A stretch of 64,000 nucleotides of DNA from an uncultured Planctomycetaceae bacterium (GCA_963813715.1 CAWFAK010000012.1:160001-224000); one strand, 5' to 3'; shown: positions 32,698-59,580, numbered from the stretch's first letter. Notes: a model not told the origin generated them from the sequence alone. Program-made: numbers and translations.

Positions 32698-32925
32698 CAG
32701 CGCCATCGGGCGGAGACAATGGCCGAACGACTCGTGTCGCGTGACCCGAACCGAGTCGGGCAAATTTCCCGAGTTGTTTACACGCGCATAGAAACGCGGG
32801 GTTCGCGAGCCGCGGCTGGCGTGTTAGCTTGGCGGATGCTCTTCCAGAGGCGATCGCTCGGGATCCGTCTGGATCCAGGCCCAGGTCCCCAGGGTGACAC
32901 GGACGGCCGTCGCTGCTGGGGAGAG

Positions 32926-33677
32926 GGATCCCCGGCGGGGATCCTTTTTCGTACCCGGCGGGGTGGGGATCCTTTTTTCACACAGGGCGAGAAACAGATC
33001 CCCCGGCGGCGCGGCGATCCGAGGGACCGTCGAAGTCCGGTCCGTACACTTTGGCGAACAGGGGTCCGGGTCCAGAGTGCTCTGCCAAACGCGACGGGAC
33101 TCGATCGGCCGAGGGACCTTCGCCCGTTACGTGCTCTTGGGGCTAGGTATTTTCACGGGGGGTTGGGTCACAATTTTTTACTCTATAGGCGACCCACGAA
33201 TTTGGTGACCCACCGCCGATCGGGGGCGGGACGGGACACGTTCGATCGAGTCCAATGTCGAAGATCAGATGCTCGCAATCCTGACTTTGGACCTTTGACC
33301 ACGGGACTTTGGACCGACCACGGGACGGGACACGTTGTTTCACCGAGAAATCCCGGGAGATTTTGGCCCCTCGCTCCGGCTCGAGAGGCGGCGAGCGTGG
33401 GGGGAAGATTGGGGCGTCGGGTGGAAAGAGGTTGGCCGGTGGATCGGTGGGTCGGGACACTTTGTTTCACTAGGTAGTTGACCCAGCGAAGTAGCTGACC
33501 TCCCGTCGCCGGTTTGCGAGGCGGACATTGGGACGGGATCGGGACGGGACACGTTGTTCTATCGAGAAAAGTTCGAAGAATGCGGCCGGCGGAAAGAGAT
33601 TGGCCGGTGGGTCGGGACACCGTTTTCAATTAGGAAGTGACTCGCAGAATGGGTGGACCCGGTCTGGGACGGGACCG
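32926..33677. repeat. Non-coding mosaic repeat region A (GGGACGGGACACGTTGTTTCAC motif, about 6 copies)
   Basis: Motif at ~33228, 33322, 33449, 33541, 33609 and 33666; long blocks are reverse-complement homologues of 49450-50815. Confidence 0.85.
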
Positions 33678-33683
33678 GGCGGC

Positions 33684-36600
33684 CTAGGCGGCGTCGCGGC
33701 CGCGGCGTGACGCCGGCTGCTGGGAGGCGGCGCCGCGGATGGCCCCGTTTTCGTCGACGTCCTCGAAACGGACGGAGAGTCGCTTCGAGACGCCCGATTC
33801 TTCCATCGTCACGCCGTAGAGCAGGTCGGCGGCCGCCATCGAGCGCTTGCTGTGCGTGATCATGATGAATTGCGTCGTCTGCTTGAACTCGCGGAGCACG
33901 GCGGCGAAACGCTCGACGTTGGCCTCGTCGAGGGCCGCGTCGACTTCGTCCAGGATGCAGAACGGGCTGGGCCGACTCTTGAAGATGGCCAGCAGGAGCG
34001 CGACGGCGGTGAGCGTTTTTTCGCCGCCGCTCAACAGCGACAGGCTCCGCAGTTCCTTGCCCGGGGGGCGGGCGACGATCTCGATGCCGCATTCGAGGAT
34101 GTCGTCCGGGTTCTCCAGCACGACGTCCCCTTCGCCGCCGCCGAAGAACTTGCGGAACAGTTCTTGAAAGTGAGCGCGGATGGACTGAAACGATTCGGCA
34201 AACAGCCGCGTGCTCTCGGCATTGATGCGGCGGAGAATCTCCTCGAGCGTCTTCTTGGCCTCGACCAGGTCGGCTAGCTGCTCGCTGAGATGCGTGAAGC
34301 GGTTCTCCATCTCGTCGAGATCGTGAAGGCTCTCCGTATTCACGCTGCCCATCGCCTTGAGCTGACGCCGCAAGCGATTGACCTGAGCCTCGATCTCTTC
34401 GCGGATCTCGGCCAGCTGGGCGTCGGTCAGCGCGGCATCGGAAGTGGACGACGGCGCCTCCGGGATCGCTGACGCGTCACCCGCGGCAGGATCGGCTGCG
34501 GCCGAGCTTTCGGCATGTCCTTCTGTGACAGCCTCGGACTGTTTTTTGGCGGCGAAGTTCGCCAGCGCGGAGATGCCCGATTCGACGATCTCGGACAAGC
34601 GTACCTGGTACTCTTCGTCGATGCGGGCAACGAGCGATTCGCGTTCGCGGCTCAGCTCGCGGGCTTGCAGCTCCAGCTGGTGCAGGCGGTCGCCCGCCCG
34701 GCGACGCTCTTCGCTGAGCGCCGACTCTTCCTTCATCAGCCCGGCGCGTTCCTTCCGCAGCCCGTCTTTCTCGCCGCCCAAGCGAGCCGCGTCGGCTGCC
34801 AGTTCCTGGACCTTGATGCAGCACTCGGCGAGTGCGGCATTCGTATTGAGGATGTGCAACGAGATCCGTCGCCGATCACCCAACACCTGCTGGACACGGC
34901 GGTCGGCTTCTGCCGATTGCTGACGAAACTGCAGCTGTTCTCGCTCGAGACGTTCTTCATCCTGGCGGAGGGCACCGCGACGCTCTTCGTGCTTGGCGAT
35001 CTCCAGCTGCTCGGTATTTTGGCGACGCACGACGACCACCGACCGCGACTCGAGCGTCGCCAGTTCGGTTTCCAGCTCGCCCAGATGCTGCCGCGACGCC
35101 TGGATTTGCCCATCGAGCGCGGCGAACGTCAGAGCCTCCTGTGCCGATTCCTCCTGCGTTTGCTCGAGTTTGCCTTCCTGTTGCTGGGCGGCAACTTCAA
35201 GTGTCTGGTGTTGGGCGTCGAGTCGGGCCAGCTCGCGCTCCCGCTCGGCCAGCTCGCGCTTGCACATGTGGTGATGTTCGGAGGCCGCGTCCAGTCGCAG
35301 CTTGCCGGCGTGCAGTTCGGTGTCCGCCTCGCCGAGCGACGCCAGGATCGATTCGCTGCGTTCTTCGTCTTCCTGGATCTGCCGATCGATGCGGACCAGA
35401 TCCTGCCGCAGCCGGCGGAGTTCGCTCTTTTGAGAGACCAGCGTGATTTCGCCGCGGAGCGCCCCGACCGTAAGCGTGCCGTCGGCTTCGACCAGTTCGC
35501 CCTGCAACGTGACGAAGCGGCAGCCGCGACCTGGACCGGCCGCCAGCGCGAAGGCCGTTTCGACCGTGTCGACAATCCAGGCGTCGGCAAGCAGTTGCTC
35601 GGCGAGCGCAGGCGCTTTGTCCGAAGTTCGCACGAGCGAGTCGGCCCGGCACTCGACGCCCAGCTGCGAGCGCAAGTCGACGCGGGCGGCCGCGTCGGCG
35701 GCCAGACTTTCAAGGAAGCGATGGACGGATCGCCCAGCGGGCCGACGGGCGGCAGCCTCATTGGCCGAGGCTTGGGAGTCGCGCCCGTGAGCGGTGTTCG
35801 CGGAGGGAATAAAACCGACACGGCCGGACAGCGGGACCGACGAACGGCTGAGGTAATCGAGGAACGGCACCAGATCGTCGACGACGACCGCCTCCGAGCG
35901 GCGGCCCAGCGCGATTTCAATCAGGGGCGCCCATTCGAGGTCGACCTCGAACAAGTCGGCCACGCTGCCGATCACCTGGTTCCAGGGCGCGACCTTGGTG
36001 CTGGCCGCGCGGCTGAGGATTTCACGGACGCCGAGCCCAAGCCCTTCTTGCCGGCTCTCGAGATCTTCGAGCACGCTCTTGCGGGCCCGCCAGGCGCTCC
36101 GCTGCTCGCGGCGGTCGGCCAGCGTTTTGTGGAATTGCTCCTGCACGCCGGCGAGCGCCAGCCGATCGCGCTCCAGCCGATCGAGTGCTTCGCGTTCGGC
36201 GGCCGCGGCGTCAGCTGCGGAGGCGACCTGCTCCGCCTGATGAGCCAGTTCGTCGCGGACCTCCTCAATCTGTTTCTCGAGAGCCGCCCGCTGTTGCCGG
36301 TTGCTCGACAACGACACGCGCAGCTCGTCGGCCTGACCGTTCAGGACCGATTGGCGATGCGACGCTTCGGACAGCTCATGATGTTTGTCGTGCAGGCCCT
36401 GCCGCTCGGCTTCGAGAGCTTTGCGCTGAGCGGCCAGTTCGGCGGTGATTTCAGCGGATTCGCGGGCCCGTTCTGCGAGCACGGCCTCCCGAGCGGCGAG
36501 CTCTTCGTCGATCCGGGCGGCTTGATGTCGGGCGTTTTCGAGTCCCTGCGCCGCGTCGCGGCCGCGCGATTCGATCGAGGTCCGCTGCCGCCGCAGCCGC

Positions 36601-37553
36601 ACCAGATCGGCCTCCAGCTCGCGGACGCGCGACGACTGATGTCGCACCGTCGCCTCCTGCCGGGCCGATTCTTCGCGGAGGTCGGCCCGACGCCCGTCGA
36701 CGTCGCGCAGAGTTTCATCGAGCCGGGCAATCTCGCTCTCCACCCTGGCGAGCGACGATTGGATCTCGGCAATCCGACCGTCCCATTCGGCGCCGGTCGA
36801 GTTTTGAGCGGCGAGCTGGGCTTCGACCTCGGCCAGCTTTGCCGACTGCTCGCGATATTGATCGGCCGCCAGACCGAGCCACAGCTCGCGGAGCTGCTCG
36901 GAAATCTGGCGGTACTTGGCCGCCTTCACGGCCTGGTTGCGGATGGCGTTGAGCTGGGCCTCGACCTCGTTGACGATGTCGGTGAGCCGGGCGACGTTCT
37001 GATCGACACGCTCCAGCTTGCGCTCGGCGTCGAGCTTGCGATTCTTGTAGCGGCTGATGCCGGCCGCTTCCTCGAAGACGAGTCGCCGGGCCGAGGCGTT
37101 GGCCTGCAGAATCTGTTCGACGCGTCCCTGCTCGATGATGCAATAGGTGGCCGAGCCGGCCCCCGTTCCCATGAGCAGGTCACGGATGTCCTTAAGGCGG
37201 GCCGGCGACCGATTGATCAGGTATTCGCCCTCGCCGTTGCGCGAGATGCGTCGCCCGATCTGCACCTCGGCTGTCTCCACGGGCAGAAAGCCAGTGGAGT
37301 TGTCGAAGGTGAGCGTGGCTTCGGCGAAGGCGCTCGGCTTGCGGCCCGACGCGCCGTTGAAGATGACGTCGGTCATCTCCTTGCCGCGGAGGCTCTTCGC
37401 GCTTTGGTCGCCGAGGATCCACTTGATCGAGTCGACGACGTTGCTCTTGCCGCTGCCGTTGGGCCCGACGACGCCCGTCGTTCCGGGCGCAAAGTCAAAC
37501 CGGATGCGGTCGGCAAAGCTCTTGAATCCGAAGATTTCGAGAGACTTCAACAT
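33684..37553 (-). CDS. smc: Chromosome segregation protein SMC
   Basis: [16 protein letters not shown], coiled coils, hinge, [27 protein letters not shown]. Confidence 0.98.
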
Positions 37554-37714
37554 CGGCGGCCATCATCCTGCCCCAAAAGCGGCGCGAAGCCCACCGGCGG
37601 CCGCCCGTGGGCTTTCCTCGTCCCCCGCCGTCCGACGACGCGAACAATTGCGAGCGTCGGCACGGGGAAGATGCAACTCGTTGATCGGGCCCATCGACAA
37701 GCAGCCAATTCCGG

Positions 37715-39850
37715 TCATGGCTCCTTGTTCCCGGAGACATCTGCGCCGCCAAACTTGAAGAGCTGCCAAAAGCTCCAACGGCTGGACGGTGGATCGGTGC
37801 TCTTGGAATCGTCGTCGTCGGTTTCCGCGACGGCCGGCTTGACCGCGCCCGTCTTGGTCGCGGCCGGATTGGTCGCACCGGCGTTGGTCGAAGTCGCGTC
37901 AGTTTGCGAGACTTGTTTGATCGGCTGCGTTCCGTCGGTCGTCGACGCGCTGCCGGAAGCTGCCTTCGGCGTCGCCGGCATGCTACTGCCGAGGTCGGAC
38001 GGGCGGATCGACTTTGACGCCCCATCGGACGACGAGCCGTCATCCTTGTCGTCGTCAGCGGCAGCTTTTTTCTTCTTGGCGTTACGGTCCTCGCCGATGG
38101 CAAACATGTTGGGACCGGTTTCCGGATTGCCAACCAGGTTCTTCGTGCGGAATTTTGCCTTGGCGATGCCCTGCTCGGGCGGCTGGTAACTGCGGCCCGC
38201 ACGGGGCAGGGCATCGATCTCGAGGTGGCCGGCCAGGTTGTCCTGGTGATCGGCTTCGGTCAAAAATTGATTGACGTCGGGAAACGTCGCGCCGAACTCG
38301 GTCAGCGTGCGAATCACGTCTTGCAGACGAGGCGAGATCGTCTTGCGCTGGTCCTCCTTGCCGACCTCGAAGCGGCATACGGTGACACGGTCGGCCCCCG
38401 GCGCGCCCGAGACAATGATGTTGTTGCCAGCCCGGGCGAAGATGGGAGTCTTGATCTCCTGCTCGGCGCCATACAACACGACTTCCGCTTTTTTGCAATT
38501 GGTGATGTGGACCATGGGCGAGCCCTCGGTCTTCAGCGTGTGCAGGCGGAATTGGTTGCCCAGCATCTCGCCGCGGACGAAGGGATCGTTCTTGTCGAGG
38601 GTGGTGAGCGCGCGAAATGCACCGTAACGGGTCTCGGCGCTCTGCACGTTCATCAATTCGCGCAACTTGACGTGCACCTCCGGATCGTCGAGGCAGGCCA
38701 TCGCCGCCAGCGCGAAGATGCGGAACGCGTATTGGTCGCGGGCCGCCTCGAAGAGGGCCTGCAGCCCCGCGGAGTCGCCGAGATAAGCGAGCGCCTCGGC
38801 CGAATAGAATTGAACTTGCGGATCCTTGCTCTTCAGCCCGTTCTTGAGAGTCGGAATTCCCTGATCGCCGATCGCTTCGAGCTTGAGCGCCGCCTGGGCC
38901 GACGTTTCCGGTTCGAGCAGATCCCATTTGAGCGCGCGGATTCGCACCGCTCGAGCAACGTCGGTCTCGCGAAAGGCAATCTTGCGGACGACGTCGACGT
39001 ACCGCGGATAGTTGTCCCGGTATTTGGGCAGAACCTTCAGTACGATCTTCTGATCGGTCTTGGCTTCGGCCAGCGGAATGCGCTGCCCGTGCCGGTCGTA
39101 GTCGAAGAATCGCCGGCCGATCGCATTGGCAATACGGACCGCGTTACGCTCGCTGCGGAACTCGTTGCGGAGGTAGAGTTCGAGTTCGCGGTCTTCCCAC
39201 TTCCAGGTGCCGCCCGCCACGATTCGGCCACGACGCAGCAGGCCAGCCTGGTCGTTCGCGTTCTTATGGGTGCTGCCCACGAGGATCGGCCCCTCGGCGA
39301 TGGCGAACTCGTGGCTGGTATGGTCGACGCCGGCGTTGTCGCGGAGGTGCTCACGCAGGTAGCACGGCATCAGCCGTCCGCCGTTGAGGCTCTTCACTTT
39401 GCTGCCGTCGGGCAGGCGGACTTCGACGTCAAAGTGTTCGTTCTTGCGGATCAGGGCCGGAACGTAACCGGTGACGATCACGACCGTGACGTTGGGCATC
39501 TTGAGAATCTTGTTGGGATTCGGAATGCCGCGGCGCTTGAGGTCTTCGAGCACCACGTGACGCGCTTCCGACGGCGGCGGATCTTCACCCGTGCCGTTGA
39601 GGTCCACGACCAGTCCGGCGCCTTCCAGCTGAATCCACCACCCGCCCGCAACCTGCGTATGCTCGCCGATAAGAGGCACCTTGGCCCGCGCGTCGTATTC
39701 GTCGAGTTCGCCCGTGTCGTCATCGTCCTTGTTTTTGGACGCCTTCTTCTTGGAACCGAATAAACCCGCCGCATGGCCTGCCGGCGGTACGGCCGCCGAA
39801 ACCAATAGAGCCAGCGTGGTGATCCAGACGACAAGCAGAGGGCGCTTCAT
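37715..39850 (-). CDS. FlgI (P-ring)-family protein with HEAT-like repeats, planctomycete type
   Basis: LEGAGLVVDLNGTGE, FDVEV...SLNGGRL, AEGP; HEAT-like AALKLEAIG, FYSAEALAYLGD, RYGAFRAL; signal peptide. Confidence 0.75.
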   Translation of the reverse strand: MKRPLLVVWITTLALLVSAAVPPAGHAAGLFGSKKKASKNKDDDDTGELDEYDARAKVPLIGEHTQVAGGWWIQLEGAGLVVDLNGTGEDPPPSEARHVVLEDLKRRGIPNPNKILKMPNVTVVIVTGYVPALIRKNEHFDVEVRLPDGSKVKSLNGGRLMPCYLREHLRDNAGVDHTSHEFAIAEGPILVGSTHKNANDQAGLLRRGRIVAGGTWKWEDRELELYLRNEFRSERNAVRIANAIGRRFFDYDRHGQRIPLAEAKTDQKIVLKVLPKYRDNYPRYVDVVRKIAFRETDVARAVRIRALKWDLLEPETSAQAALKLEAIGDQGIPTLKNGLKSKDPQVQFYSAEALAYLGDSAGLQALFEAARDQYAFRIFALAAMACLDDPEVHVKLRELMNVQSAETRYGAFRALTTLDKNDPFVRGEMLGNQFRLHTLKTEGSPMVHITNCKKAEVVLYGAEQEIKTPIFARAGNNIIVSGAPGADRVTVCRFEVGKEDQRKTISPRLQDVIRTLTEFGATFPDVNQFLTEADHQDNLAGHLEIDALPRAGRSYQPPEQGIAKAKFRTKNLVGNPETGPNMFAIGEDRNAKKKKAAADDDKDDGSSSDGASKSIRPSDLGSSMPATPKAASGSASTTDGTQPIKQVSQTDATSTNAGATNPAATKTGAVKPAVAETDDDDSKSTDPPSSRWSFWQLFKFGGADVSGNKEP

Positions 39851-40171
39851 GGCGAGGCACTCCTTGGAACGGGATCGCTCGAGTGCAAATCGGCAGGGTG
39901 TCGAGGCGAGAGATTAAATCAGAGCCGCGAACGCGCGTCGGTGCGCGGCGCAACGCAGCGGTTCTGACAAACGGTTGGAGCAGGAAGTGAAATGAAAGGC
40001 AGCGGAATGAAAGGCGGACGGGAAGAGAGGGGAGATTGGAGAGCGGGAGAATACGACCCGCGCCCCGGCGGGTCAAGGCGATTTCAGCAAACGCCGCGCA
40101 GCCGCAATTTCACGGCGTTCGAAGAGGGAATCTGCGCGGGCTGGAAAACTGGGCGGCGCCACCAAGCGTTG

Positions 40172-40632
40172 TCAGCTGCGCAGTTCCAGAATGCACTCGA
40201 TCTCGACGGCGATATTGCCCGGCAGGGAGCCCATGCCGACGGCGCTCGCGCGGCACGGCCGGCCTCGCCAAAGACGTCAACCATCAATTCGCTAAAGCCG
40301 TTGATGACTTGCGGATGCCGCTCGAAATTGGGGACCGCGTTGACCATGCCCAGAACTTTGAGCACGCGGCCGATGCGATCGAGACTGCCCAGTTGAGTGC
40401 GGAGAGTGGCGAGGATGGTCAACCCGACTTGCCGCGCCGCCCGCTTCCCCTGCTCTTCGTTGAGTTCCGCCCCAACCTTGCCGCAGATCATGCTGCCGTC
40501 GGGCAAGAGTGGTCCGTGTCCCGACACGTAGAGGATGTTGCCCGCCTGAACGACGGGATTGTAGACGCCGGCCGGTTTGGGCGGCGGCGGGAGTTCGAGC
40601 TTCAATTCCTGGATTCGTGCGTCGGCGCTCAT
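40172..40632 (-). CDS. RidA/YjgF family protein, frameshift at ~40248
   Basis: LELPPPPKPAGVY, YVSGHGP, HPQVINGFSEL, then AVGMGSLPGNIAVEIE in the shifted frame. Confidence 0.9.
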
Positions 40633-41004
40633 GACAAATCCCTGGGCGAACGAAACGGACCTGAATTCGAGCCGGCGTGGCAAAAGCAGACGGTCGCTGA
40701 GGATACCCGGATCCGCCCGCCAGTCCAATCGAGTCGCGGCGTCCTTTCCGCACCCGGGAGCTGGCCGTTTGCCGCCCGACCGTTTGCCGCACTTCGCCCA
40801 TCTTGTGGACTGAGCTTTCCAGCCCTCTTACAATGACAACTGACGAGGACAACGGCTTCTTGCAGTGATACTGGCTGAGTGGCACCGGCTTTTGAAAGCG
40901 CGGCTAGCACTGCCTTCCGAGGACACCGTCTGTTGAAGACGCTGTCTGTCTGAACGAACCTGTTGAGATCGCGGGCGATCGCCGTCCGCGAAGGTTGAAC
41001 GCGC

Positions 41005-42009
41005 ATGGAAAACTTCGTTTGGACGGCTCCGCTGGCCATTTTCGCCATCTTTGTGGCGATTATGGCGTTGGTTGTGCTGTTCATGTTTGCCCGCTATTTC
41101 AAGTTGTGGTTGCGAGTCTTCGTGTCACGTGCTCGCATCGGGCCGTTTGCGCTCATCGGCATGTCGCTGCGGAAAGTCAATCCGCAAGTCGTGGCTGAAA
41201 CGAAGATCATGGCCGTGCAGGCCGGCCTCGCCGACATCACTACGAACGCGATCGAGGCCCACTACCTGGCCGGCGGCAACATTCGCCGCGTCGTGCAGGC
41301 GCTGATTGCCGCTCATCGGGCCAGTATTGATTTGAACTGGGACACGGCGGCGGCGATCGACCTGGCCGGCCGCAACGTGCTGGAAGCCGTGCAGACCAGC
41401 GTCGATCCGAAAGTGATCGACTGTCCGGATCCGCGTCGGACCGGACGCACCACCCTCGACGGTGTGGCGAAGGACGGCATCCAGCTCAAGGCGCGGGCGC
41501 GCGTCACTGTCCGCACGAACCTCGCGCAGCTCGTCGGCGGCGCGACCGAAGAGACGGTCATCGCCCGCGTCGGCGAAGGCATTGTGTCGGCCATCGGTTC
41601 GTGCGGATCGCATAAGGACGTCCTGGCCAACCCGACGCTCATCGCCAAGGCCGTGCTCGACAAGGGGCTCGATTCGCAGACCGCGTACGAAATCGTCTCC
41701 ATCGACATTGCCGACATTGCCGTCGGCGACAATCTGGGCGCCCGGCTGATGGCCGACCAGGCCGAAGCGGACATGCGGATCGCTCGCGCCAAGGCCGAGG
41801 AGCGACGAGCCAACGCCGTCGCCAAAGAGCAGGAAATGCAGGCGCTCACCAAGGAAAATCAGGCGGCCGTCGTGATGTCCGAGGCCGAGATTCCCAAAGC
41901 CATGGCGGAGGCGTACCGCATGGGCAATTTGCGAGCCCGCATTTCCTCCAATGGAGAACCTCACGACGTGGGCCTGCCCGGCCTGCCCGCCCCCAGCGCG
42001 GAGCGGTGA
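41005..42009 (+). CDS. floA: Flotillin-like protein FloA (YqfA)
   Basis: [67 protein letters not shown]. Confidence 0.93.
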
Positions 42010-42341: not shown

Positions 42342-42551
42342 ATGAGCGAAACTATGAGCGTCGGACTGACCGAAGATCAGCGCGAAATCCTTTTGCGGGG
42401 TCTGCGATTCGTTCGCAGTGCCGTGGCCCTCGAGGTTTACGATTCGACCCCCGAAACCGACATCCAGCGATCGAGCAAGCTACGGGAGATCCGGCAGCTC
42501 GCCGAATACCTGGAGGGCGCGCGGCCGGCCGGTACGACCGCCCGGGTCTAG
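42342..42551 (+). CDS. Small hypothetical protein
   Basis: AGGAGG RBS; MSETMSVGLTEDQREILLRGLRFVRS. Confidence 0.65.
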   Translation: MSETMSVGLTEDQREILLRGLRFVRSAVALEVYDSTPETDIQRSSKLREIRQLAEYLEGARPAGTTARV

Positions 42552-42634
42552 TCCTCTTCCGTGAGCGCGCCGTCGCATCGTCGAATAGTCCGTAAGAACC
42601 GGCAGGCTGACACCTGCCGCTCGCCGATGCCCTG

Positions 42635-43675
42635 ATGCGTTATCGCCACGTCTCGATCGCGGCCGTCTGCCACGTGTTGCCGCCCGAAATCGTCACGTCG
42701 GCCGAGATCGAAACCCGGCTGCGCCCGGTCTACGAACGGCTCGGACTGCCCGAAGGCCGCCTCGAGCTGATGACGGGCATCCGCGAGCGGCGATTCTTCC
42801 CCCGCGGCACACGACCCGGCCAGGTGAGCGCCCAGGTGGCCACTCGGGCTGTCGAAATGTCCGGCATCCCGCGGGCACTCTTTGGCGGACTGGTGCACGG
42901 ATCGGTCTGTCGCGACCAACTCGAGCCGGCGACGGCCAGCTTCGTACATCATGCGGCCGGACTGCCTCAATCGGCCTTCGTGCTGGACGTGAGCAATGCC
43001 TGTCTGGGGTTGCTCAACGGCATGATCCTGTTGGCCGACATGATCGAGCTCGGGCAAATCCGCGCCGGCGTGGTGGTCGGCACGGAAGACGGTCGCTCCC
43101 TCGTCGAAGGCACGATCGAATCGTTGCTGGCCAACCCCACGCTCACGCGGCAGGACGTGAAGCGTGACTTCGCGTCGCTGACGATCGGTTCGGGGTCGGC
43201 GGCGATTGTGCTCTGCGATCGCAAGCTCGCCAAATACGGACATCGGCTGCTGGGCGGTGCGTTTCGGGCGGAAACCAGCAATCACGAACTGTGCACGGGC
43301 GGAGATAGCGCCCAGCCCGGCGACGCACTGCGGATGCAGACCGACTCGGAAGCTCTGCTGCACGCGGGCGTCGCCCTGGCGGCCAGCACATGGCAGGACG
43401 CCAAGCAGGCTTTGGGCTGGTCCAACGCGGACGTCAACAAGACCTTCACGCACCAGGTCGGCCGAGCGCACCGCAAGCTGCTGTTCGAGCGGCTCGAGCT
43501 CGATCCGAAGATCGACTTTCCGACCGTCGAGTTCCTGGGCAATACCGGGGCCGTCGCGCTACCCACTGCCTGGTCGCTCGGCATCGAACAAGGTCGCATC
43601 ATCGCGGGAGATCGTGTCGCCCTGCTCGGAATAGGCAGCGGGCTCAACGCGCTGATGCTGGGGCTGGAGTGGTGA
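42635..43675 (+). CDS. 3-oxoacyl-ACP synthase III family, OleA-like thiolase
   Basis: TGIRERR, LEPATA (Glu), SNACLG (Cys), THQVG (His), GNTG (Asn), GIGSGLN. Confidence 0.85.
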   Translation: MRYRHVSIAAVCHVLPPEIVTSAEIETRLRPVYERLGLPEGRLELMTGIRERRFFPRGTRPGQVSAQVATRAVEMSGIPRALFGGLVHGSVCRDQLEPATASFVHHAAGLPQSAFVLDVSNACLGLLNGMILLADMIELGQIRAGVVVGTEDGRSLVEGTIESLLANPTLTRQDVKRDFASLTIGSGSAAIVLCDRKLAKYGHRLLGGAFRAETSNHELCTGGDSAQPGDALRMQTDSEALLHAGVALAASTWQDAKQALGWSNADVNKTFTHQVGRAHRKLLFERLELDPKIDFPTVEFLGNTGAVALPTAWSLGIEQGRIIAGDRVALLGIGSGLNALMLGLEW

Positions 43676-43690
43676 CAGCAGGAGATAGTC

Positions 43691-44501
43691 ATGTCCAGCG
43701 GTCGAAATAGTCGTCTTCACGCGACTGCCTTTCTTCGCGCGACGCGGTTGGCTGTCTTCTCATTCGCGGCGCTTGCTTTTGCTTCCGAGGGCCCAGGCCG
43801 GGATCCGGAGGATTCGTCGAAGTGGGTCGAGATGAGCGTCGACCAGAACGCCGATTACTGGCAGAGAGCCAACTGGTCGTCCGATGAATGGGTCGTCTAC
43901 TTACGCGAGGGCCGGCCGAGTGTGCGTACCCAAAAGAGAAGCGAGGACGATCGAGGCAAGCTACCGTTCGCGGTCGCGAAAGGCTTCCGCAATGTGCAGG
44001 TCGCCAAAGTTGCCGACGGATGGATCGTTGCTTCTAACTACGGCGAATTCGGGGCCGAGCTCTGGTGGTTTTCCCCGGAAGGGAAGAGCCGTTATCAGAT
44101 TTCACGAGAGCACGTCCGCGGCTTTCTACAAAACGATCGCGAGCTGTTTGCGTTAGAGGGACTTGCCCACAAGGGCATTGACCGGGGTCAAGTTCTTCGC
44201 ATCGTCCGTGGCTCAAACGGCAAATGGAGGTCCGAACGAGTGGTGGATCTGGGAAGTGAGCCGGGCGCGGCAACGCGAGACAAGGACGGCTCGTTGATCA
44301 TCGTCACCAACACGCGACTGGTCCGTGTCCGCGTTGGAAAGCCAGTGGAAACGCTGCTGGACGATATGTTCTGGGATGGCCTTTATCCCAACTCGATCGT
44401 CGTTGATAGCTCCGGCACCGTCTATATCGGAATGCGGAAGGGTGTCGCGAAGGCGACGCTCAAGGGAACCAAGACGCTGTCTCTGGTTAGTTCCCAAGTA
44501 G
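43691..44501 (+). CDS. Hypothetical secreted beta-propeller-like protein; probable frameshift at ~44480
   Basis: Signal peptide, GEFGAELWWF, LEGLAH, LYPNSIV, YIGMR. A shifted frame ends WLVPK* at 44501, which avoids overlap with the opposite gene. Confidence 0.6.
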
Positions 44502-44532
44502 GATGCTCTATTTGCGTGAAACCTGCCGCCGG

Positions 44533-44759
44533 CTATTGCGGCTCAGCCGGCTTCGGCACGGCGCGCTCAGCGGCAGCGAATCCGCACGCTTTGTGCTGGC
44601 CGTCGCAAAATGGTTTGTTCTGCGACTGGCCGCAACGGCACAGGGCGACCGTCTCTTTGCCGGCGATGTCGAATTGATTCCCGTCGGGGTCGACCAGGGT
44701 GATCGGGCCGGTGACCAGCAGCGGGCCGTTTTGCGCGTGCGAATCGAGACGTCGGGCAT
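44533..44759 (-). CDS. CDGSH iron-sulfur domain protein, frameshift at ~44730
   Basis: MPDVSIRTR joins NGPLLVTG...ALCRCGQSQNKPFCDGQH. Confidence 0.9.
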
Positions 44760-44927
44760 TTTCGAGAATCCTGCAGACGAGCGGGGGAAGAACGCCGCCG
44801 GGGCGGACGGCTCGAACATAACGGTGCCATTTTGCAAACGCAATCGCTGTCCATTAAGCTTCCGTTCACGCCTGGCTCGCGGTCAGGCGCGGGCATCATT
44901 CGCGAACGACTTGTTGAAGGACTCGCT

Positions 44928-45842
44928 GTGACCGCGCGCGACGATCTCCTCGGCGAGCTGCGCTGGAAAAAATTTCCCGTGCTCGACGATGGCTTTGTCT
45001 GCCTCGTCGATGTGATGGGCGACGACGGTTCGGTTGTGCAGGCGGCCCGCGTCAGCTACGGCGAGGGGACCAAGCGCGTCTCCGACGACCGCACGCTGAT
45101 CCGCTACTTGATGCGGCACCGTCACACCACGCCCTTCGAGATGGCGGAGATCAAGCTGCTCGTCCGCGTGCCGATGGATTGCTGGCGGCAATGGATTCGC
45201 CACCGCACGGCGTCTGTCAACGAGTACAGCACCCGCTACTCGATCGCCATCGATTCGGCCCAGGCCACGCCCGCCGATCAGTGGCGGAGCCAGGCCCAAA
45301 CGAACCGGCAGGGGAGCGGCGAGTTGTTGCCCGCCGAGCTTGGCCAGCAACTCACCGAGGCCGAGCAACGATTGCAGGAAGAATGTCGCCGCGTCTACCA
45401 GGAGCGACTCGATCGCGGCGTGGCCCGCGAGCAGGCTCGCAAGGACCTGCCGCTGGCGACCTACACCGAGGCCTACTGGAAGGTCGACCTGCACAATCTG
45501 CTCAACTTTCTAGTGTTGCGGATGGACGCGCATGCCCAGCAGGAAATCCGCGATTACGCTTGCGCCATCGGCGAGCGAATCGTGGCCCCACTCTTCCCCG
45601 TCGTCTGGGAGGCTTTTTGCGACTACCGCCGCGAGTCGATGGAATTGACGCGGCTCGACCTGGCGGTCATTCAGCGGCTGCTGGCCGCCGGAGGGACTGC
45701 CGGGACCGCACCTCCGTACGATCAGACGACCTTTCTGGCCGTGCAGGACGAATCCTGGAGGTCGCTCAGCCGCAGTCGGGAGCGGGAGGAATGTGCGGCC
45801 AAGCTGCGGCGCCTGGGCCTCCTGGCCGACGAGCCGAGCTGA
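44928..45842 (+). CDS. thyX: FAD-dependent thymidylate synthase
   Basis: QAARVSY, HRHTTPFE, RQWIRHRTASVNEYSTRY, AREQAR, HAQQEIR. Confidence 0.96.
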   Translation: MTARDDLLGELRWKKFPVLDDGFVCLVDVMGDDGSVVQAARVSYGEGTKRVSDDRTLIRYLMRHRHTTPFEMAEIKLLVRVPMDCWRQWIRHRTASVNEYSTRYSIAIDSAQATPADQWRSQAQTNRQGSGELLPAELGQQLTEAEQRLQEECRRVYQERLDRGVAREQARKDLPLATYTEAYWKVDLHNLLNFLVLRMDAHAQQEIRDYACAIGERIVAPLFPVVWEAFCDYRRESMELTRLDLAVIQRLLAAGGTAGTAPPYDQTTFLAVQDESWRSLSRSREREECAAKLRRLGLLADEPS

Positions 45843-46128
45843 CCAGCGGCCTCCAACGATCGGTCGCGGCACGGTTTGCATGGTTCCGGGGTTCTTGGTA
45901 CTCTAACGGTCCAATTGGGGTGGTCTGCGCTGTTTCTGAGCGCCGACAGCCGTCCGGTCCACACCCGGACTCGCGCTCGACTGGCCCTGCTTTTGCCAGT
46001 CGACCTGGCTGCGGCCCAGAGTGACCTGGCGGACTCCTGCGCGGGAGCCGCATGCAGGTGACTCACCAGCACGGTGATTCAAGTGCACCGCCACCGTTAC
46101 CGACATTCAGAGTCACAGGAGGAAATTC

Positions 46129-46326
46129 GTGGTCAAGCTGCGTCTGCGCGAGCATGAATCGATTTCGGATGCTGTGAAGAGATTTCGTAAGCTGGTGGAA
46201 CACGCGGGGATCAAAAAAGAGATGCGCCGCCGCGAGTATTACGAAAAGCCCAGCGACCAGCGCCGCCGCGCCCGCCGTCGGGCCGAACGCCGCGCCCGGA
46301 TGCTGCGAATGCCTGTCAGCCAGTAA
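46129..46326 (+). CDS. rpsU: 30S ribosomal protein S21
   Basis: [21 protein letters not shown]...[10 protein letters not shown]. Confidence 0.96.
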
Positions 46327-46403
46327 ACCAGCCTGGCGATAATTGCGACTGCGTGAATGCAAGCGGGCTCCGCCCTGCAGTCGCGCCTTTGAAGCAAACA
46401 AAC

Positions 46404-46439
46404 AAAAACCCCCGGCTTAACCACGTCGGGGGATTTTTT
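46404..46439. terminator. Bidirectional terminator between convergent genes
   Basis: AAAAACCCCCGGC...GTCGGGGGATTTTTT. Confidence 0.7.
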
Positions 46440-46470
46440 GTCTTCGTAATGAGCCTGCGAACGCCGGCGT

Positions 46471-46836
46471 TTACTTCGACGCCGCGGCTTCGACCGGCTT
46501 GGCCGGCGGAATGATGGTCTCTTTGATCGCCTGGATGAAGAAAATCTTCTTGGGCGACTTCAGCTTCAATTGCTGCACCTTCTCCTCGGCCGACTCCCGC
46601 GCGTCGTAGGCGAAGCGCCCTTCTTCTTTCATGCTGCCGTTGTAGACGGCCCACATCAGCCGCTTCCGCTCGGCGACCTTGGTCTTGGTGCGGCGGGTTG
46701 ACGGCTTCTTCGTGCCGTCCTTGCTTTTGACCTTCTTCTTGGCGGTCTTTTCGCCCTTTTCGCCGGACGAATCGGCCTCGCCGGCGGCTTCGACTTGTCG
46801 CCGCAATTCCAACCGACTGGGAGTCTTCCGCGCCAT
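46471..46836 (-). CDS. Basic hypothetical protein
   Basis: MARKTPSRLELRRQVEAA, Lys-rich linker, WAVYNGSMKEEGRFAY, FFIQAIKE; strong codon bias. Confidence 0.75.
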   Translation of the reverse strand: MARKTPSRLELRRQVEAAGEADSSGEKGEKTAKKKVKSKDGTKKPSTRRTKTKVAERKRLMWAVYNGSMKEEGRFAYDARESAEEKVQQLKLKSPKKIFFIQAIKETIIPPAKPVEAAASK

Positions 46837-47292
46837 CTCTTAAATCCTCAGCTCTCTTGATTCGCGCCCCGCACTGAATGAGGGGCGGCGTGAAATTCTC
46901 GCTTTGCCGCTCGTCGCCATTTTCCCGGGTTGCAATCGACGTCTGGCTGCCCCGAATGCACGGCCCAAACGCACGGCCGACCGGCCAACGGCAGAAGATA
47001 ACAGATGGATTTCGCGGCGGCCATTGAGCGGCAGGAAGTGCCGAAACATATGGCGCGGCGCGGTTCGCCAATGGAATAAGGGACCTATCAATGCCTTCCT
47101 CCGCGTTGCGGCTCCGGTTCCGAGCCGAATTTGCCCCTCGATTCCGGGTCAATTTCCTTGAGTGGAACGATCGTTTCGTCCGAAAAAAGCAGAATAGTTT
47201 ATCTAATCAGGCCAACCGGACCGATCAATATAACCGCGGGAGTCCTCCCAAGACCGGCTCCCACGGTCCATGTACGTTAAGGAGAGCACTCG

Positions 47293-48363
47293 ATGCGTAG
47301 GTACCCGAAATGGGTGTTGACCCTGGGAATCGTGGCGGTGACTCCTGGTCTGTCGATGGCCGCCTTCCCGTTCGGGAGCGACACCGACGCCAGCTCTTCC
47401 ACGGCGACTCCGCCGCGTTCCAGCCGTAACCAAAAAGTGGCCGAGGACATTGCTGTCGCCCTCAAGCGGGCTCAGTTCCACGGCTACGAGATCGAAATCG
47501 AATACAAAGATGGCGTGGCCATTCTGACCGGAAAGGTCTCCGACCCCCGGCAGAAGATGAAGGCCAACCAGGTCGTCAACGCCGTACCCGGCGTGCATCG
47601 CCTGGAAAACCGACTCTCGGTGATCACCGCCTCGCGCGGGCCGATCCGACAGGCGTCGGCCGATTCCGAGGTCACTGCTCAGCCCGCCATGCAGGCTGGC
47701 GGAGCGGCTCCGGCCGGCCCCGGCAACCAGGAAAAGGCCATGCTGATCGGCCGTGCTCTCGAAGCCGGCGGTCTCAGCGGGTATGACATCGAAATCCTGT
47801 TCCAGAACGGTCAGGCCGTGCTTCGCGGCACGGTCGCGACGCCGCAGCAGGTGGCCGTCGCGGGAAACATTGCTCAGTCGGTGCCGGGCGTCCAATCGGT
47901 CGCCAACCAGCTCCGACTCGGTCAGCCTCAGGGTCAACCTCCTGCCGGTGCGCGTTACGCGATGGCCGGATACCAGGCGGGTCCCGGTGCTCCGATGACT
48001 CCGGGCGTTGCTCCGGGAATTCCCGGTCCGGGTGGACCGGCTCCTTCCGCTGGTCCGGGCGGTCCGCTGGGAGCTCCGATTCCGGCGACGGGCCCGGTGC
48101 CCGCTGGCCCGGTCTACGACAACCCGAACATCCCCGAGTACGCCTGGCCGACGTACGCCCAACATCCGAACTACGCCGCTGTGACCTACCCGAGCCAATA
48201 CAGTGCTTCGGCATGGCCTTACATCGGACCGTTCTATCCGTATCCTCAGGTGCCGCTCAACTGGCGTAAGGTCAGCCTCGAGTGGTCGGACGGCCACTGG
48301 GATCTCAAGTTTGACTCCCGGACCGATCGCTGGTGGTGGTTCCTGAATCCGGTCAACTGGTGA
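47293..48363 (+). CDS. BON-domain secreted protein with Pro/Gly linker and aromatic C-terminal motif
   Basis: Two BON-like repeats (VPGVHRLENRL, VPGVQSVANQL); YAWPTYA...WPYIGPFYPYPQVP...W. Confidence 0.85.
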   Translation: MRRYPKWVLTLGIVAVTPGLSMAAFPFGSDTDASSSTATPPRSSRNQKVAEDIAVALKRAQFHGYEIEIEYKDGVAILTGKVSDPRQKMKANQVVNAVPGVHRLENRLSVITASRGPIRQASADSEVTAQPAMQAGGAAPAGPGNQEKAMLIGRALEAGGLSGYDIEILFQNGQAVLRGTVATPQQVAVAGNIAQSVPGVQSVANQLRLGQPQGQPPAGARYAMAGYQAGPGAPMTPGVAPGIPGPGGPAPSAGPGGPLGAPIPATGPVPAGPVYDNPNIPEYAWPTYAQHPNYAAVTYPSQYSASAWPYIGPFYPYPQVPLNWRKVSLEWSDGHWDLKFDSRTDRWWWFLNPVNW

Positions 48364-48673
48364 GCGGTTGCCGGCACAGCACACAGGGCGTCTTCGAGGT
48401 GCAGGCCTCGAAGACGCCCATGTCTTTTGAGCGTCCCGATTTCCGATTCGCGTGCTGAGTGCGTGTGACACCTGTCCGGATCGTCGGATTTTTCGTCAGA
48501 AGCGGAAAATTCGCAAAAGTCCACGTCACTTAACACTCGATAAGTAAGAGGCAGCCTTCAGAGCCGAAGGCGTTCGTGCGACTGCCACAACACCAGTCGC
48601 CAACAACGATTTCGCAAACGACATCCAACGCAACAAACCCTCGTTGGCTCGGCATCACCCGAAGGGGAACAGA

Positions 48674-49261
48674 ATGCCCTACGTGAGAAAACATGCAAAG
48701 CGAATCGCCCTCATCATCGCCCTGTGCGTGATGACGGTGCCGAGCAGCGGCTGCACCCTGTTCACCGGGTTCCTGAGTGCCACGTGGGGCTGGATGTGCT
48801 TCTGGGAAACCAGTCCGCTGATTCCAGTCTCGCCGTACTGGAGCCAGCTCATCGAGGACCGCTATCACTGGGAACAGCGCTACGCCAAAGTCCCCGTGCT
48901 CGATCCGGTGGAAGGCGAACACGCTCCCTTGTTCTGTCTCGATCCGCCGTCGCCCGACGAAGTCATGCGGTCCTTGCCTGACGACACGTCCGGCAGCGTT
49001 TACTTCCTCGCGGAAACCCATCGCAACAACGTGCGGATCGTCGTCGAGAACATCGTCGACAGCATCGGCGAGTGCCGCATGTATCCGCTGGTCGGCCCGT
49101 GCAAGTTGAAGAAGTGCCACTACAAATGCACGGTCTACTTCGACAAGCTGATCCGCTCCGACTGGCCGATCCCCTTCTCGAACAACCACCCGACGCAGGA
49201 AGTGGTCTACGTCGACCACGATCACCTGATCCGCTGTGCGGGCCCGGATACTCAGCAGTAG
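48674..49261 (+). CDS. Conserved hypothetical lipoprotein
   Basis: Signal with SSGC lipobox-like site; DPPSPDEV, YPLVGP, HYKCTVYF, EVVYVDHDHL. Confidence 0.75.
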   Translation: MPYVRKHAKRIALIIALCVMTVPSSGCTLFTGFLSATWGWMCFWETSPLIPVSPYWSQLIEDRYHWEQRYAKVPVLDPVEGEHAPLFCLDPPSPDEVMRSLPDDTSGSVYFLAETHRNNVRIVVENIVDSIGECRMYPLVGPCKLKKCHYKCTVYFDKLIRSDWPIPFSNNHPTQEVVYVDHDHLIRCAGPDTQQ

Positions 49262-49323
49262 TCCGCACTCAGCAGCAGTCGCACACTCAGCAGTTAGTCG
49301 GACACTTAGCAAACACTCAACAG
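49253..49323. repeat. Short degenerate ~18-bp tandem repeat
   Basis: CAGCAGTAGTCCGCACT / CAGCAGCAGTCGCACACT / CAGCAGTTAGTCGGACACT. Confidence 0.6.
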
Positions 49324-49740
49324 GAGTGACAGCGGGAGGTAGCCCGAGACTTCTCGCCTCAGGCCGCGAACCTCCAATCCCAAAAAGAGATTCGCAAAAA
49401 ATTTCCGGTGGCGTGCTCGGTTCGAGGGTCCGAGCAAATGCTGCCGGAAATTTTTTGCGCACCGCGCAGTCACGGGCCAGGCGAGCCGACTGCGTTAGCT
49501 GTCGGGTGCTTCGGCATCCTCCCGAGAGTTTTCTCCGGCCTTTTCCCGGTGAAACAACTTGTCCCGTCCCGATCCCGTCCCAATGGTCCCGCGGAATGGC
49601 GACCGGGGTGGGTCAACTACTTCGCTGGGTCAACTACCCAGTGAAACAAAGTGTCCCGACCCACCGGCCAACCTCTTTCCACTCCCGATATTCTTCGAAC
49701 TTCTCTCGATGAAACAACGTGTCCCATCCCGTTCTTCTCC

Positions 49741-49800
49741 AGCCCCAACGGGGCGCGACAGCTATAGCCTGGGTCGGAGCGCAGCGCAGGCCCAGGATCC
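49741..49800. repeat. Solo copy of the RAYT-associated REP
   Basis: AGCCCCAACGGGGCGCGACAGCTATAGCCTGGGTCGGAGCGCAGCGCAGGCCCAGGATC closely matches 31315-31372. Confidence 0.85.
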
Positions 49801-50010
49801 CGAGATCCCAATCCACATCCAATCGTCCCCCCTCCCCCCGTATCAGTCCGCGCCGGCACTTACCGCCGAAGCGGCGGACGCCGACAAGCCGGAGAGGGGC
49901 CGGGCGTGAGGGGGCTTTCGCACAACTGGACCAGGCTGAGGGAAGATTTCTCCGGGCTTTTCTCGGTAGAACAACGTGTCCCGTCCCGACTGAACCGAAT
50001 CCGGATGTCT

Positions 50011-50102
50011 AACCACCAAGCCACCAAGCACCAAGCACCAAGGGGACGCTAAGCTCAGCGGACTTTGCCTGCCTTGGTGATCTTGGTGGCTTGGTGGTTC
50101 AA
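50011..50102. repeat. CACCAAG-type inverted-repeat element
   Basis: AACCACCAAGCCACCAAG...CTTGGTGGCTTGGTGGTT. Confidence 0.75.
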
Positions 50103-50312
50103 ATCCGTCCCTGATTGATCGTTGGGACCGGATCGCGAACTATCCCGTCCCACCGGCCAATGCCTTTCCACCCTTCCTCCTCACTCTTCCCCCAACGCGC
50201 CCGGCCCTGGCGGGCCGACTGCGTCAGCTGTCGGGTGCTTCGGTCTTCCCGAGAGTTTCTCCGGGCTTTTCTGCGTAAAACAACTTGTCCCGTCCCGCTC
50301 GGAGGGGAGTCT

Positions 50313-50411
50313 TTCACCACAAAGACACTAAGGCACGAGTAAAGCCTACTCAGGTAATCCCGACTCAGCGGATCGGATTTCTTGGTGTCCTTGGTGTCTT
50401 TGTGGTGACAA
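50313..50411. repeat. CACCACAAAGACAC-type inverted-repeat element
   Basis: TCACCACAAAGACACTAAGG...CCTTGGTGTCTTTGTGGTGA. Confidence 0.75.
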
Positions 50412-51083
50412 ATCTTCGGTCTTGTCCCGCGTGTCCCGTCCCGCTGGTCTGAATCAATCCCGTCCCAACGTGTCCTGGGCCCACTTCGGCGGTTTGCCCC
50501 GGTGAAACAACGAGTCCCGTCCCGCGTCCCGAGCCGGCGGCAGAACGAAAGGCACCGGCTTACTGCGTGCGCGGCTCCCTAAGAGGGTCCCGATTGCCGG
50601 GCCGGATCGCCACTCAACGGATCGACACTGACCGGTGGGACTCTCGTCGGTGGGTCCACACCCCTTATATCAATTGTGAGAGACCCGTCCCGGCGGGACC
50701 ACTTTAGGCGGACCCGGCGGGTCAACGTGTCCCGGCGCGCCGGGGATCTTTTGCTCCCTCGATCCTCTATGTGAAAAAAGGATCCCCACCCCGCCGGGGG
50801 ATCCTTTTTCGTCCTCGCGGGGCGCCCTCCACGCGCACAAAACCGCTCGCGCCGAGATCCGCTCTCTCCATTCAGCCACAAAACCGAGATTCGTCCAAGA
50901 TCAGTTTCCTCCGAATCCTCGCTAAGAACCTGGGGAGGTGTTTGATCCCTCTCCCATTCAGATGGGAGAAGCAGTGCCCTCGTCACCATTCCCTCCCTCC
51001 CTCCCTCCCTCGCCTGGAGGATTCGGGCGTATTGCAGCACGGGCTTGGCACGCCGTAATCTGGCAGGATATTCGAGGTTTTGC

Positions 51084-59576: not shown

Positions 59577-59580
59577 GCGG

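What the first reader, a model, noticed from the sequence alone, without database searches (positions are those of the whole stretch)
32926..50815. Two inverted non-coding mosaics built on a GGGACGGGACACGTTGTTTCAC motif, with permuted modules
Seen: region A (32926-33677) and region B (49450-50815) lack credible genes and carry about 6 and about 9 irregularly spaced motif copies in opposite orientation. A 33421-33560 is the near-identical reverse complement of B 49550-49682, and A 33541-33620 matches B 49652-49730. The two modules therefore occur as X-Y in A but Y-X in B, with junctions at the motif. B also holds an internal ~95-bp duplication. Both outer ends carry GGATCCCC..GGGGATCCTTTTTTCAC (32926-32981; 50771-50811). 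Inference: a dispersed, modular non-coding family whose units are shuffled at the motif. Candidate roles are an iteron/protein-binding array, a recombination array or a non-autonomous element. No cognate enzyme is encoded next to either copy, and I do not recognise the family.
Basis: partly seen in the sequence, partly recalled or inferred. Interest (0 to 1): 0.8.

Follow-up and report, generated by a model that had tools for sequence, protein, structure and literature searches.

The report
Promoter-headed mosaic repeat arrays in planctomycetes
The two patches belong to a family of about 65 one-directional mosaic repeat arrays found in one branch of a planctomycete genus; more than half begin with a predicted promoter, and they sit where related genomes gain, lose or rearrange genes, likely because the shared repeats act as recombination joints.

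Summary
The repeats are real, but A and B are not a pair: they are 2 of 67 motif clusters in the genome. The ~16 kb between them is housekeeping DNA, in the same orientation in three relatives. The basic unit is a 13-nt G-rich core with 62-250 copies in 7 genus members and 0-3 in 34 other genomes. All 33 multi-copy clusters are single-stranded in orientation. One head type has promoter geometry facing the array (21 of 22, against 1 of 22 facing away). Arrays are inherited, swap modules at shared homologies, attract several insertion sequences, and mark synteny breaks with the sister species (23 of 31 against 24 of 99 control gaps after removing IS). The closest known kind is the neisserial NIME array. 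No cognate enzyme was found, transcription is not shown, and the X-Y/Y-X order is a cyclic repeat order, not proof of shuffling. The scan noted what is probably this family before on other DNA (e1-7460752). Verdict: new variant of a known kind.

The parts
32776..32830 (+). Head of array A (type U2): 20-bp palindrome 32776-32795, -35-like hexamer 32802-32807, 17-nt spacer, -10-like hexamer 32825-32830, facing the array
   Evidence: Promoter function is inferred from geometry; the consensus scan did not call it
32926..32981 (+). Module K, two copies: G+C hairpin followed by a T run (terminator-like)
   Evidence: (I12)
33036..33215 (+). Modules V (33036-33049) and Y (about 33165-33215); Y is absent from strains L273 and L217
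33227..33320 (+). Core plus heptamer-repeat hairpin module H, bounded by two cores; absent from strains L273 and L217
33321..33365 (+).
33421..33539 (+).
33540..33677 (+).
33684..37553 (-). smc gene, first of the housekeeping block between A and B (FlgI-domain, RidA-like, FloA, FabH-like, ThyX, BON genes); not part of the element
49395..49462 (.). Long hairpin with A and T runs at the distal end of B, present in all 10 relatives examined, with or without arrays; likely the host's bidirectional terminator
   Evidence: function inferred
49473..49571 (-). Last unit of B: M plus module S; G002 diverges from this genome right at the 5' edge of this core
49572..49731 (-).
49736..49799 (-). Module R: copy (86% over 64) of the repeat that flanks the Y1 gene at 30697-31373
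49860..49988 (-). M plus module D (palindrome of the kind flanking DUF559 genes); strain L269 has an IS110 element inserted in D
49989..50297 (-). M, S, truncated M2 and heptamer hairpin P; this unit is deleted in strain L258 with the crossover in the M tail
50298..50745 (-). Modules T and W, M, further cores and a second P-type hairpin
50768..50812 (-). Module K (terminator-like on both strands)
50868..50907 (-). Head of array B (type U): A-rich box, -35-like hexamer 50898-50893, 17-nt spacer, weak -10-like hexamer 50875-50870, facing the array
   Evidence: Promoter function inferred; not called by the consensus scan
30697..31373 (+). Neighbouring REPtron: Y1 transposase gene (profile positions 43-121 in one open frame, apparently frameshifted) between 64-nt inverted repeats; source family of module R, not of the core
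   Evidence: (I2)

Best explanation
A and B are two members of a genus-branch-specific family of one-directional composite repeat arrays, each a conserved head followed by a string of modules joined at a shared G-rich core, and the arrays likely serve as recombination joints for module exchange, gene gain and loss, and chromosome rearrangement. Shown: polarity, heads, vertical inheritance, module gain and loss, insertion-sequence targeting, and excess of synteny breaks. Inferred: (1) the exchange is homology-dependent (RecA or slippage) at whatever repeat two partners share, not cutting at one fixed base; (2) the heads are sigma-70-type promoters firing into the array, so the G-rich strand is the displaced strand and would be exposed to recombination and to single-strand transposases; (3) the core may descend from the terminal repeat of a TIRYT-type Y1 transposase. 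It works like a neisserial NIME array but is not one by sequence.
For: Family size and range: (core and U head occur in the same 7 of 41 genomes). Polarity: 33 of 33 multi-copy clusters on one strand, heads upstream in 39 of 67; 290 of 290 clustered 10-nt cores share their neighbours' strand, and 119 against 1 lie on the head's strand downstream of U, none upstream. Promoter geometry: 21 of 22 against 1 of 22, unconserved spacer. Inheritance with module swaps: 6 orthologous pairs, strains. Varied crossovers: in the M tail, across the core, in heptamers and M2. Synteny breaks: 28 of 33 against 24 of 99; 23 of 31 against 24 of 99 after removing IS, and 6 of 19 against 2 of 79 for flanks far apart. 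A and B each separate genes that are neighbours in array-free relatives. IS targeting.
Against: Transcription is not shown: only contigs of RNA runs were available and they cannot give strand, start or level. The consensus scan calls neither head, and the U-type -10 box lacks the usual A at its second position in 43 of 50 copies. A terminator-like K module often follows the head and would stop transcription before most cores. 28 of 67 clusters have no head within 1.2 kb by my patterns. Breaks near arrays could reflect accumulation of repeats at sites already tolerant of insertion, and G000 is only 83% complete, which inflates the 'one flank absent' class (12 of the 23). The junction survey gave only 9 events from 23 aligned loci. 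No TIRYT match was found in G000, G002, G003 or G006.
Confidence: 0.55

Rival explanations
1. The arrays are built by a single-strand HUH (Y1) transposase of the TIRYT kind that nicks at the 5' edge of the core, peels out core-to-core units as single-strand circles and pastes them at other cores; homologous recombination is secondary.
For: Sharp 5' edge: a pyrimidine in 96 of 96 copies just before the search pattern, no conservation further upstream. The terminal repeat of TIRYT genes in G009 and G011 matches a common core variant at 14 of 17 positions by my alignment. 71-72% identical relatives of the core-targeting IS4-like transposase sit in such terminal repeats in G006 and G011. 4 of 8 Y1 genes of G000 lie within 2 kb of a head, against 4% of the genome. 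Several G000/G002 alignments end at the core's 5' edge.
Against: No Y1 gene flanked by cores was seen among the 8 of G000 or 51 loci of the genus. No TIRYT match in the four genomes named above. True TIRYT repeats carry an A tract and form inverted pairs, whereas cores are always direct. Two deletions cross over downstream of the core. The tail hairpin is not supported by covariation at most pairs.
Confidence: 0.17
2. The arrays are genes for non-coding RNAs, such as protein-titrating (CsrA-sponge-like) RNAs rich in GGA, or short head-to-terminator RNAs; the recombination is a by-product.
For: Promoter geometry conserved while the spacer drifts; terminator-like K module; GGA-rich sense strand; 12 CsrA-family matches in G000, 11 over the cut-off.
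Against: No consensus structure for the U head region in 50 copies; weak covariation in the M tail; modules are freely lost and interrupted by IS; no Rfam match; the core lacks the A two bases before GGA that CsrA prefers (recalled consensus).
Confidence: 0.12
3. The core is the crossover site of a dedicated site-specific recombinase, and the arrays are integron-like cassette platforms with the head as their promoter.
For: Modules replaced between two cores; a promoter-like head at the 5' end; B and an array 25 kb further on bracket a ~29-kb accessory island in the same orientation; recombinase genes lie beside three arrays.
Against: Those recombinases are three unrelated enzymes of elements inserted in or beside arrays; the large serine recombinase element splits module T, not the core. 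Crossovers are not confined to the core. Modules are non-coding.
Confidence: 0.08
4. The arrays are functionless piles of unrelated small repeats that collect in insertion-tolerant gaps; polarity and heads are only inherited from one founder copy.
For: Modules belong to separate repeat families with their own enzymes (R with RAYT, D with DUF559); enrichment in convergent gaps, 21 of 66 against 239 of 1808.
Against: Fixed box spacing with a drifting spacer in two head types indicates selection; heads and polarity persist in G007 and G010 (listed places).
Confidence: 0.08

Closest known systems
Neisserial intergenic mosaic elements (NIME arrays: dRS3 plus RS elements; Bentley et al. 2007, PMC1797815, passages read)
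   Same: A short conserved junction flanks many families of 50-200-bp non-coding modules; arrays are syntenic but vary in number and length, host other repeats and IS, and are proposed recombination substrates; the junction is the target of a transposase.
   Different: dRS3 is a 20-bp inverted repeat, the core here is non-palindromic and strictly polar; no sequence likeness; arrays here have promoter-like heads and a G-rich strand. The 2007 paper had not seen NIME arrays outside Neisseria.
REP/BIME repeats with RAYT, and IS that target them (PMC6006769 and PMC1525189, passages read)
   Same: Abundant, lineage-restricted extragenic repeats, clustered, enriched between convergent genes, with IS4- and IS110-family elements inserting at fixed points (as ISRm22, ISPa11). 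True REP modules occur inside the arrays.
   Different: The core is not a hairpin with a 5' guide tetranucleotide, copies are direct rather than alternating, and no cognate RAYT was found.
TIRYT terminal repeats (Di Nocera et al. 2013, PMC3733652, section 16 read; TnpA-Y1 subclass 2.1 in PMC6006769)
   Same: Non-palindromic G-rich tag; the core fits the published 8-letter consensus at 7 of 8 positions and a genus TIRYT repeat at 14 of 17.
   Different: TIRYT repeats have an A tract, flank a transposase gene and form inverted pairs; the core does none of these.
Gonococcal pilE G4 with its cis-acting sRNA promoter (Cahoon and Seifert 2013, PMC3547852, abstract read)
   Same: A promoter oriented with respect to a G-rich non-coding tract beside recombining DNA.
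   Different: That is one locus with tested function; here some 80 heads, a canonical G4 pattern in only 36 of 67 clusters, and nothing tested.

Membership tests
NIME array | 20-bp inverted dRS3 junction | tested here: not met
   The junction is a non-palindromic polar 13-mer
NIME array | Junction alternating with many families of short non-coding modules | tested here: met
NIME array | Syntenic arrays that vary in module number between genomes | tested here: met
NIME array | Junction used as a target by a transposase or recombinase | tested here: met
   IS4-like element: 12 of 12 ends at the first 11 nt of the motif; SWIM-DDE element inside it
REP/BIME | Hairpin supported by compensatory changes, with a 5' guide tetranucleotide | tested here: inconclusive
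   One of three informative tail pairs covaries (p=0.001 in G000), the others do not; the core itself lies outside the stem
REP/BIME | Copies in inverted (alternating) orientation | tested here: not met
   290 of 290 clustered cores are direct
REP/BIME | Cognate RAYT gene flanked by the repeat | tested here: not met
   None among 8 Y1 genes of G000 (83% complete) or 51 Y1 loci of the genus
TIRYT terminal repeat | Fits the published G-rich 8-letter tag | tested here: inconclusive
   7 of 8 to the tag, 14 of 17 to a genus TIRYT repeat; A tract missing
TIRYT terminal repeat | Inverted pair around a Y1 gene | tested here: not met
Integron | One IntI-type integrase tied to the arrays; fixed crossover at attC-like hairpins; gene cassettes | tested here: not met
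   11 tyrosine recombinase matches, one gene beside an array; variable crossovers; non-coding modules
CRISPR array | Regular spacing and unique spacers | tested here: not met
   Start-to-start spacing 68-309 nt in B; modules recur at many loci
IS-derived MITE | Terminal inverted repeats and a target duplication around the whole array | tested here: inconclusive
   No common ends seen in two empty-site comparisons, both complex
pilE-type G4 recombination initiator | G4-forming sequence on the non-template strand of an oriented promoter | tested here: inconclusive
   63 same-strand against 15 opposite canonical patterns, 1.23 per kb against 0.077 in other gaps, but in only 36 of 67 clusters; geometry
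pilE-type G4 recombination initiator | Transcription required for recombination | not testable with these tools
   Needs promoter mutants
CsrA-sponge sRNA | Stable transcript with GGA in hairpin loops that binds CsrA | not testable with these tools
   RNA contigs give no strand or level; no conserved structure at the U head

The most novel reading that the evidence does not exclude
The arrays are bacterial 'switch regions': about 80 dedicated promoters transcribe G-rich repeat tracts, the displaced strand forms R-loops or G-quadruplexes, and this licenses recombination at those loci, giving the lineage a genome-wide, regulated system for swapping accessory genes and rearranging its chromosome, a dispersed version of the single pilE G4 locus of Neisseria.
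Probability: 0.2. Interest if true: 0.85.

Novelty: new variant of a known kind. Interest (0 to 1): 0.58.

Why it matters
NIME-type arrays were described as special to Neisseria, and how they promote recombination is still a hypothesis. A second, unrelated family with a simpler junction, strict polarity and a promoter-like head gives a direct way to test whether transcription drives recombination at intergenic repeat arrays. It also explains much of the genome plasticity of this uncultured branch: about three quarters of its motif-bearing gaps differ in gene neighbourhood between sister species. The IS4-like transposase with 12 of 12 ends at one 11-bp word is a naturally site-specific DDE enzyme.

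Tried and rejected
Inversion or mobile block between A and B: the block keeps order and orientation in G002, G003 and G009. Known RNA family: none at threshold; no consensus structure at the U head. Decayed gene: no Pfam match in 4 overlapping ORFs; U conservation is not codon-periodic; U beside Y1 genes in G003, G009 and G006 lies outside the genes. Phage or satellite origin: four scans of viral contigs found nothing, a fifth gave 2 chance matches inside genes. parS or Noc-type site (consensus recalled): 2 parS-like sites genome-wide, neither in an array. IS4-like element as builder: found only in G000, with 71-72% relatives in G006 and G011, among 26 genomes, so a recent passenger. Reverse transcriptase: 3 matches at 2 loci, neither at a motif cluster. 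Four-helix-bundle gene as partner of the heptamer modules (link recalled): none found. The single GxxExxY gene is flanked by a different repeat. One search is void: the pattern was miscounted and missed G000 itself; one search repeats it correctly. RNA runs: 4 of 14 laid, all contigs, even cover of single-copy genes, so no statement on expression. The automated junction survey was too small for statistics. The range of the U2 head among relatives was not determined.
Full report
OBSERVATION. The window is G000:C12:160001-224000. X is 84% identical between A and B over 142 columns, Y 86% over 81, the B duplication 86% over 102, and the outer palindrome 31 of 32. A reads X-Y-X' and B reads Y-X-motif, and this cyclic order recurs in other arrays, so the 'permutation' alone shows no shuffling. 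Four overlapping ORFs have no Pfam match; no Rfam family reaches threshold in 30000-60000.

A AND B ARE NOT A PAIR. The 22-nt motif has 32 exact copies and 130 at up to 4 mismatches in G000, in 67 clusters. Between A and B lie smc, FlgI-domain, RidA-like, FloA, FabH-like, ThyX and BON genes; the two flanking probes keep order and orientation in G002, G003 and G009. A metagenome scan gave 104 stretches, 80 returned; 73 of the 80 have a match of 400 bases or more to G000, mostly 95-99% identical, so they are strains of the same species. L258 and L269 reproduce B and L273 reproduces A (L217 in part); RNA-run contigs also bridge some B junctions. Misassembly is unlikely.

RANGE. A 21-nt form of the motif occurs 86 times in G000, 63 in G002, 3 in G006, once in G009 and not in 37 other genomes of 41. 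The 13-nt core is wider: 208, 161, 238, 250, 93, 235 and 62 exact copies in G000, G002, G003, G006, G007, G009 and G010, and 0-3 in the other 34, including five members of the genus. In G006 and G009 it also forms tandem runs of 17-20-nt units. The genome-collection scan gave 30 loci, 26 in records titled Planctomycetaceae and 4 in one titled Tepidisphaeraceae; the 2 of those 4 whose alignments I saw are 94-98% identical to G000, so they are probably mis-binned.

ANATOMY. In 96 copies the base before the pattern is always a pyrimidine, nothing upstream is conserved, and conservation fades about 44 nt downstream. The tail can fold into an imperfect hairpin, but only one of three informative pairs covaries (p=0.001 in G000). 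The tail is the commonest of many modules that follow the core (58 of 207 cores). Other modules include a terminator-like hairpin K, boxes T, W, V, Y, Z, S and M2, heptamer hairpins, a palindrome D of the kind flanking DUF559 genes, and R, an 86% copy of the repeat around the Y1 gene at 30697-31373. All 33 multi-copy clusters are on one strand; 290 of 353 10-nt cores have a neighbour within 300 bases and all 290 share its strand. By my rough gene calls, 21 of 66 clusters lie between convergent genes, against 239 of 1808 gaps over 400 bases.

HEADS. Two related heads precede arrays. U (B: 50907-50868) has two boxes at fixed distance with a variable spacer and occurs in exactly the 7 core-rich genomes (41, 29, 8, 13, 8, 10, 6 copies). 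U lies upstream on the same strand in 28 of 67 clusters and never opposite or downstream; U2 adds 11. Within 1.2 kb downstream of U, 119 cores are on U's strand and 1 on the other, none upstream, and G skew is positive in 49 of 50. U2 (A: 32776-32830) starts with a 20-bp palindrome, which gives an internal control: of 28 copies, 22 have an array on one side, and a -10-like hexamer stands 28-30 bases from the palindrome on the array side in 21 of 22, against 1 of 22 on the far side (p=5e-10); a T marks a -35 start 23 bases earlier in 95%, and the spacer is unconserved. I chose the offset, but no other offset on the array side has a match. U has the same geometry with a weaker -10 box. Against this: the consensus scan calls neither head, K often follows the head and may end transcription early, and RNA contigs show no strand or level. 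Canonical G-quadruplex patterns are 1.23 per kb around clusters (63 on the core strand, 15 opposite) against 0.077 in other gaps, but only 36 of 67 clusters have one; A and B each do.

DYNAMICS. Six orthologous pairs show inheritance with gain, loss and replacement of modules, often between two cores. Crossovers are not fixed: strain L258 lacks one B unit with the join in a 17-nt identity in the tail; L100 differs from the next array by a join in the tail; L273 lacks the H module between two cores; 9 events from 23 aligned loci fall in the core plus tail, heptamers, M2 or IS ends. I took 40 stretches of G002 around its motif clusters and 20 evenly placed stretches. Of predicted gaps of 400-3000 bases, 28 of 33 with the motif are not collinear with G000, against 24 of 99 controls; 18 control gaps with both flanks absent and 3 with only the short core were set aside. 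After cutting out five IS types the counts are 23 of 31 against 24 of 99 (p=9e-7), and 6 of 19 against 2 of 79 have flanks far apart or on different contigs. Twelve of the 23 have one flank missing from G000, which is 83% complete. B separates 48644-49261 from the TPR gene that follows it in G001, G005, G007, G008 and G011 and now lies 30 kb away; G002 diverges at B's last core and carries other cargo. The gene next to smc in five array-poor relatives is on another contig in G000.

PASSENGERS. A DDE_Tnp_1 (IS4-like) element has 6 copies; all 12 ends abut the first 11 nt of the motif, 5 copies with a direct duplication and one with inverted flanks. A SWIM-DDE element duplicates 10 nt inside the motif at two loci. 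An IS110 element has 9 copies, 8 with the left end in D. A large serine recombinase element splits module T. The IS4-like element is missing from G002, G003, G007, G009 and G010, so it did not build the arrays.

ORIGIN. No Y1 gene is flanked by cores among the 8 of G000 or 51 loci of the genus, though 4 of the 8 lie within 2 kb of a head, against 4% of the genome. TIRYT genes in G009 and G011 have terminal repeats matching a common core variant at 14 of 17 positions (my alignment output), and relatives of the IS4-like element sit in such repeats. No TIRYT match was found in G000, G001, G002, G003 or G006, and the A-tract form occurs in 1 of 121 genomes, in inverted pairs. Descent from a TIRYT repeat is a lead only.

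COMPARISON AND PRINT RECORD. The anatomy and behaviour match NIME arrays (PMC1797815, passages read); that comparison came from earlier finding e1-7460752. IS targeting matches ISRm22 and ISPa11 (PMC1525189, passages). TIRYT: PMC3733652, section 16 and passages; PMC6006769, passages; their figures and supplements, which list the repeat sequences, were not seen and may bear on the origin. pilE G4: PMC3547852, abstract. Six searches found no description of this family; by title, the 5 papers holding the 12-letter core string concern mammalian cells. Subscription journals are mostly outside the library.

VERDICT. Real, lineage-restricted, NIME-like in function but not a member of any tested family; new variant of a known kind. 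The polar promoter-like head is the unusual part and makes a transcription-driven recombination model testable (probability about 0.2). Interest 0.58.

Noticed in passing
window 49395-49462: Long hairpin with A and T runs, present in all 10 relatives examined with a paired change in the inner stem; no Rfam match. Likely a bidirectional terminator, possibly a small structured RNA.
   Followed up: partly
window 30697-31373: REPtron with an apparently frameshifted RAYT gene between 64-nt perfect inverted repeats; in strains L273 and L217 a related RAYT gene (78% identical) lies directly beside the head of array A, in the opposite orientation.
   Followed up: partly
G000:C5:443968-445479 and five other loci: IS4-like DDE element whose 12 ends all abut the same 11-bp word; its relatives in G006 and G011 sit in TIRYT-type repeats.
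   Followed up: yes
G000:C17:4639-6190 and the end of C2: Element with a large serine recombinase that splits module T; G002 (L040) has the uninterrupted site.
   Followed up: partly
G000:C5:556918-557600, C12:50961-51500, C17:329600-330300 and similar: A sub-family of U-headed arrays with regular ~185-nt units built on module V and an A+T-rich inverted repeat, with variable segments between; more regular than the arrays studied here.
   Followed up: no
L152:2659-3160 (G006), L159:2642-2820 (G009), L008:1160-1400 (G006): The core forms minisatellite-like tandem runs of 17-20-nt units, up to about 16 copies.
   Followed up: no
window 51045-64000 and on to G000:C12:239400: Accessory island of about 29 kb (Ser/Thr kinase, TPR, ankyrin-like and other genes) between B and the ancestral neighbour gene, with a second array of the same orientation at C12:235.4-236.0 kb; content differs in G002.
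   Followed up: partly
window 53740-54571 and 58032-58093: Another repeat family (151-nt direct repeat, 85% identical, and a third partial copy) inside the accessory island.
   Followed up: no
window 18041-18256 and 27453-27512: Tandem 15-nt repeats: Cys-Pro-rich units in an ORF near 18.1 kb, and Asn-Ser-rich units just upstream of the class II ribonucleotide reductase gene.
   Followed up: no
window 51045-53680: Ser/Thr kinase-TPR gene appears split over three ORFs (51045-52004, 52047-52697, 52598-53680): frameshifted or an assembly error.
   Followed up: no
L100, L111, L112, L114: Contigs of a record titled Tepidisphaeraceae carry the arrays; the two whose alignments I saw are 94-98% identical to G000, so the bin probably holds foreign contigs.
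   Followed up: partly
G000 genome: Twelve CsrA-family matches (11 over the cut-off), one in the window at about 16972-17229.
   Followed up: no
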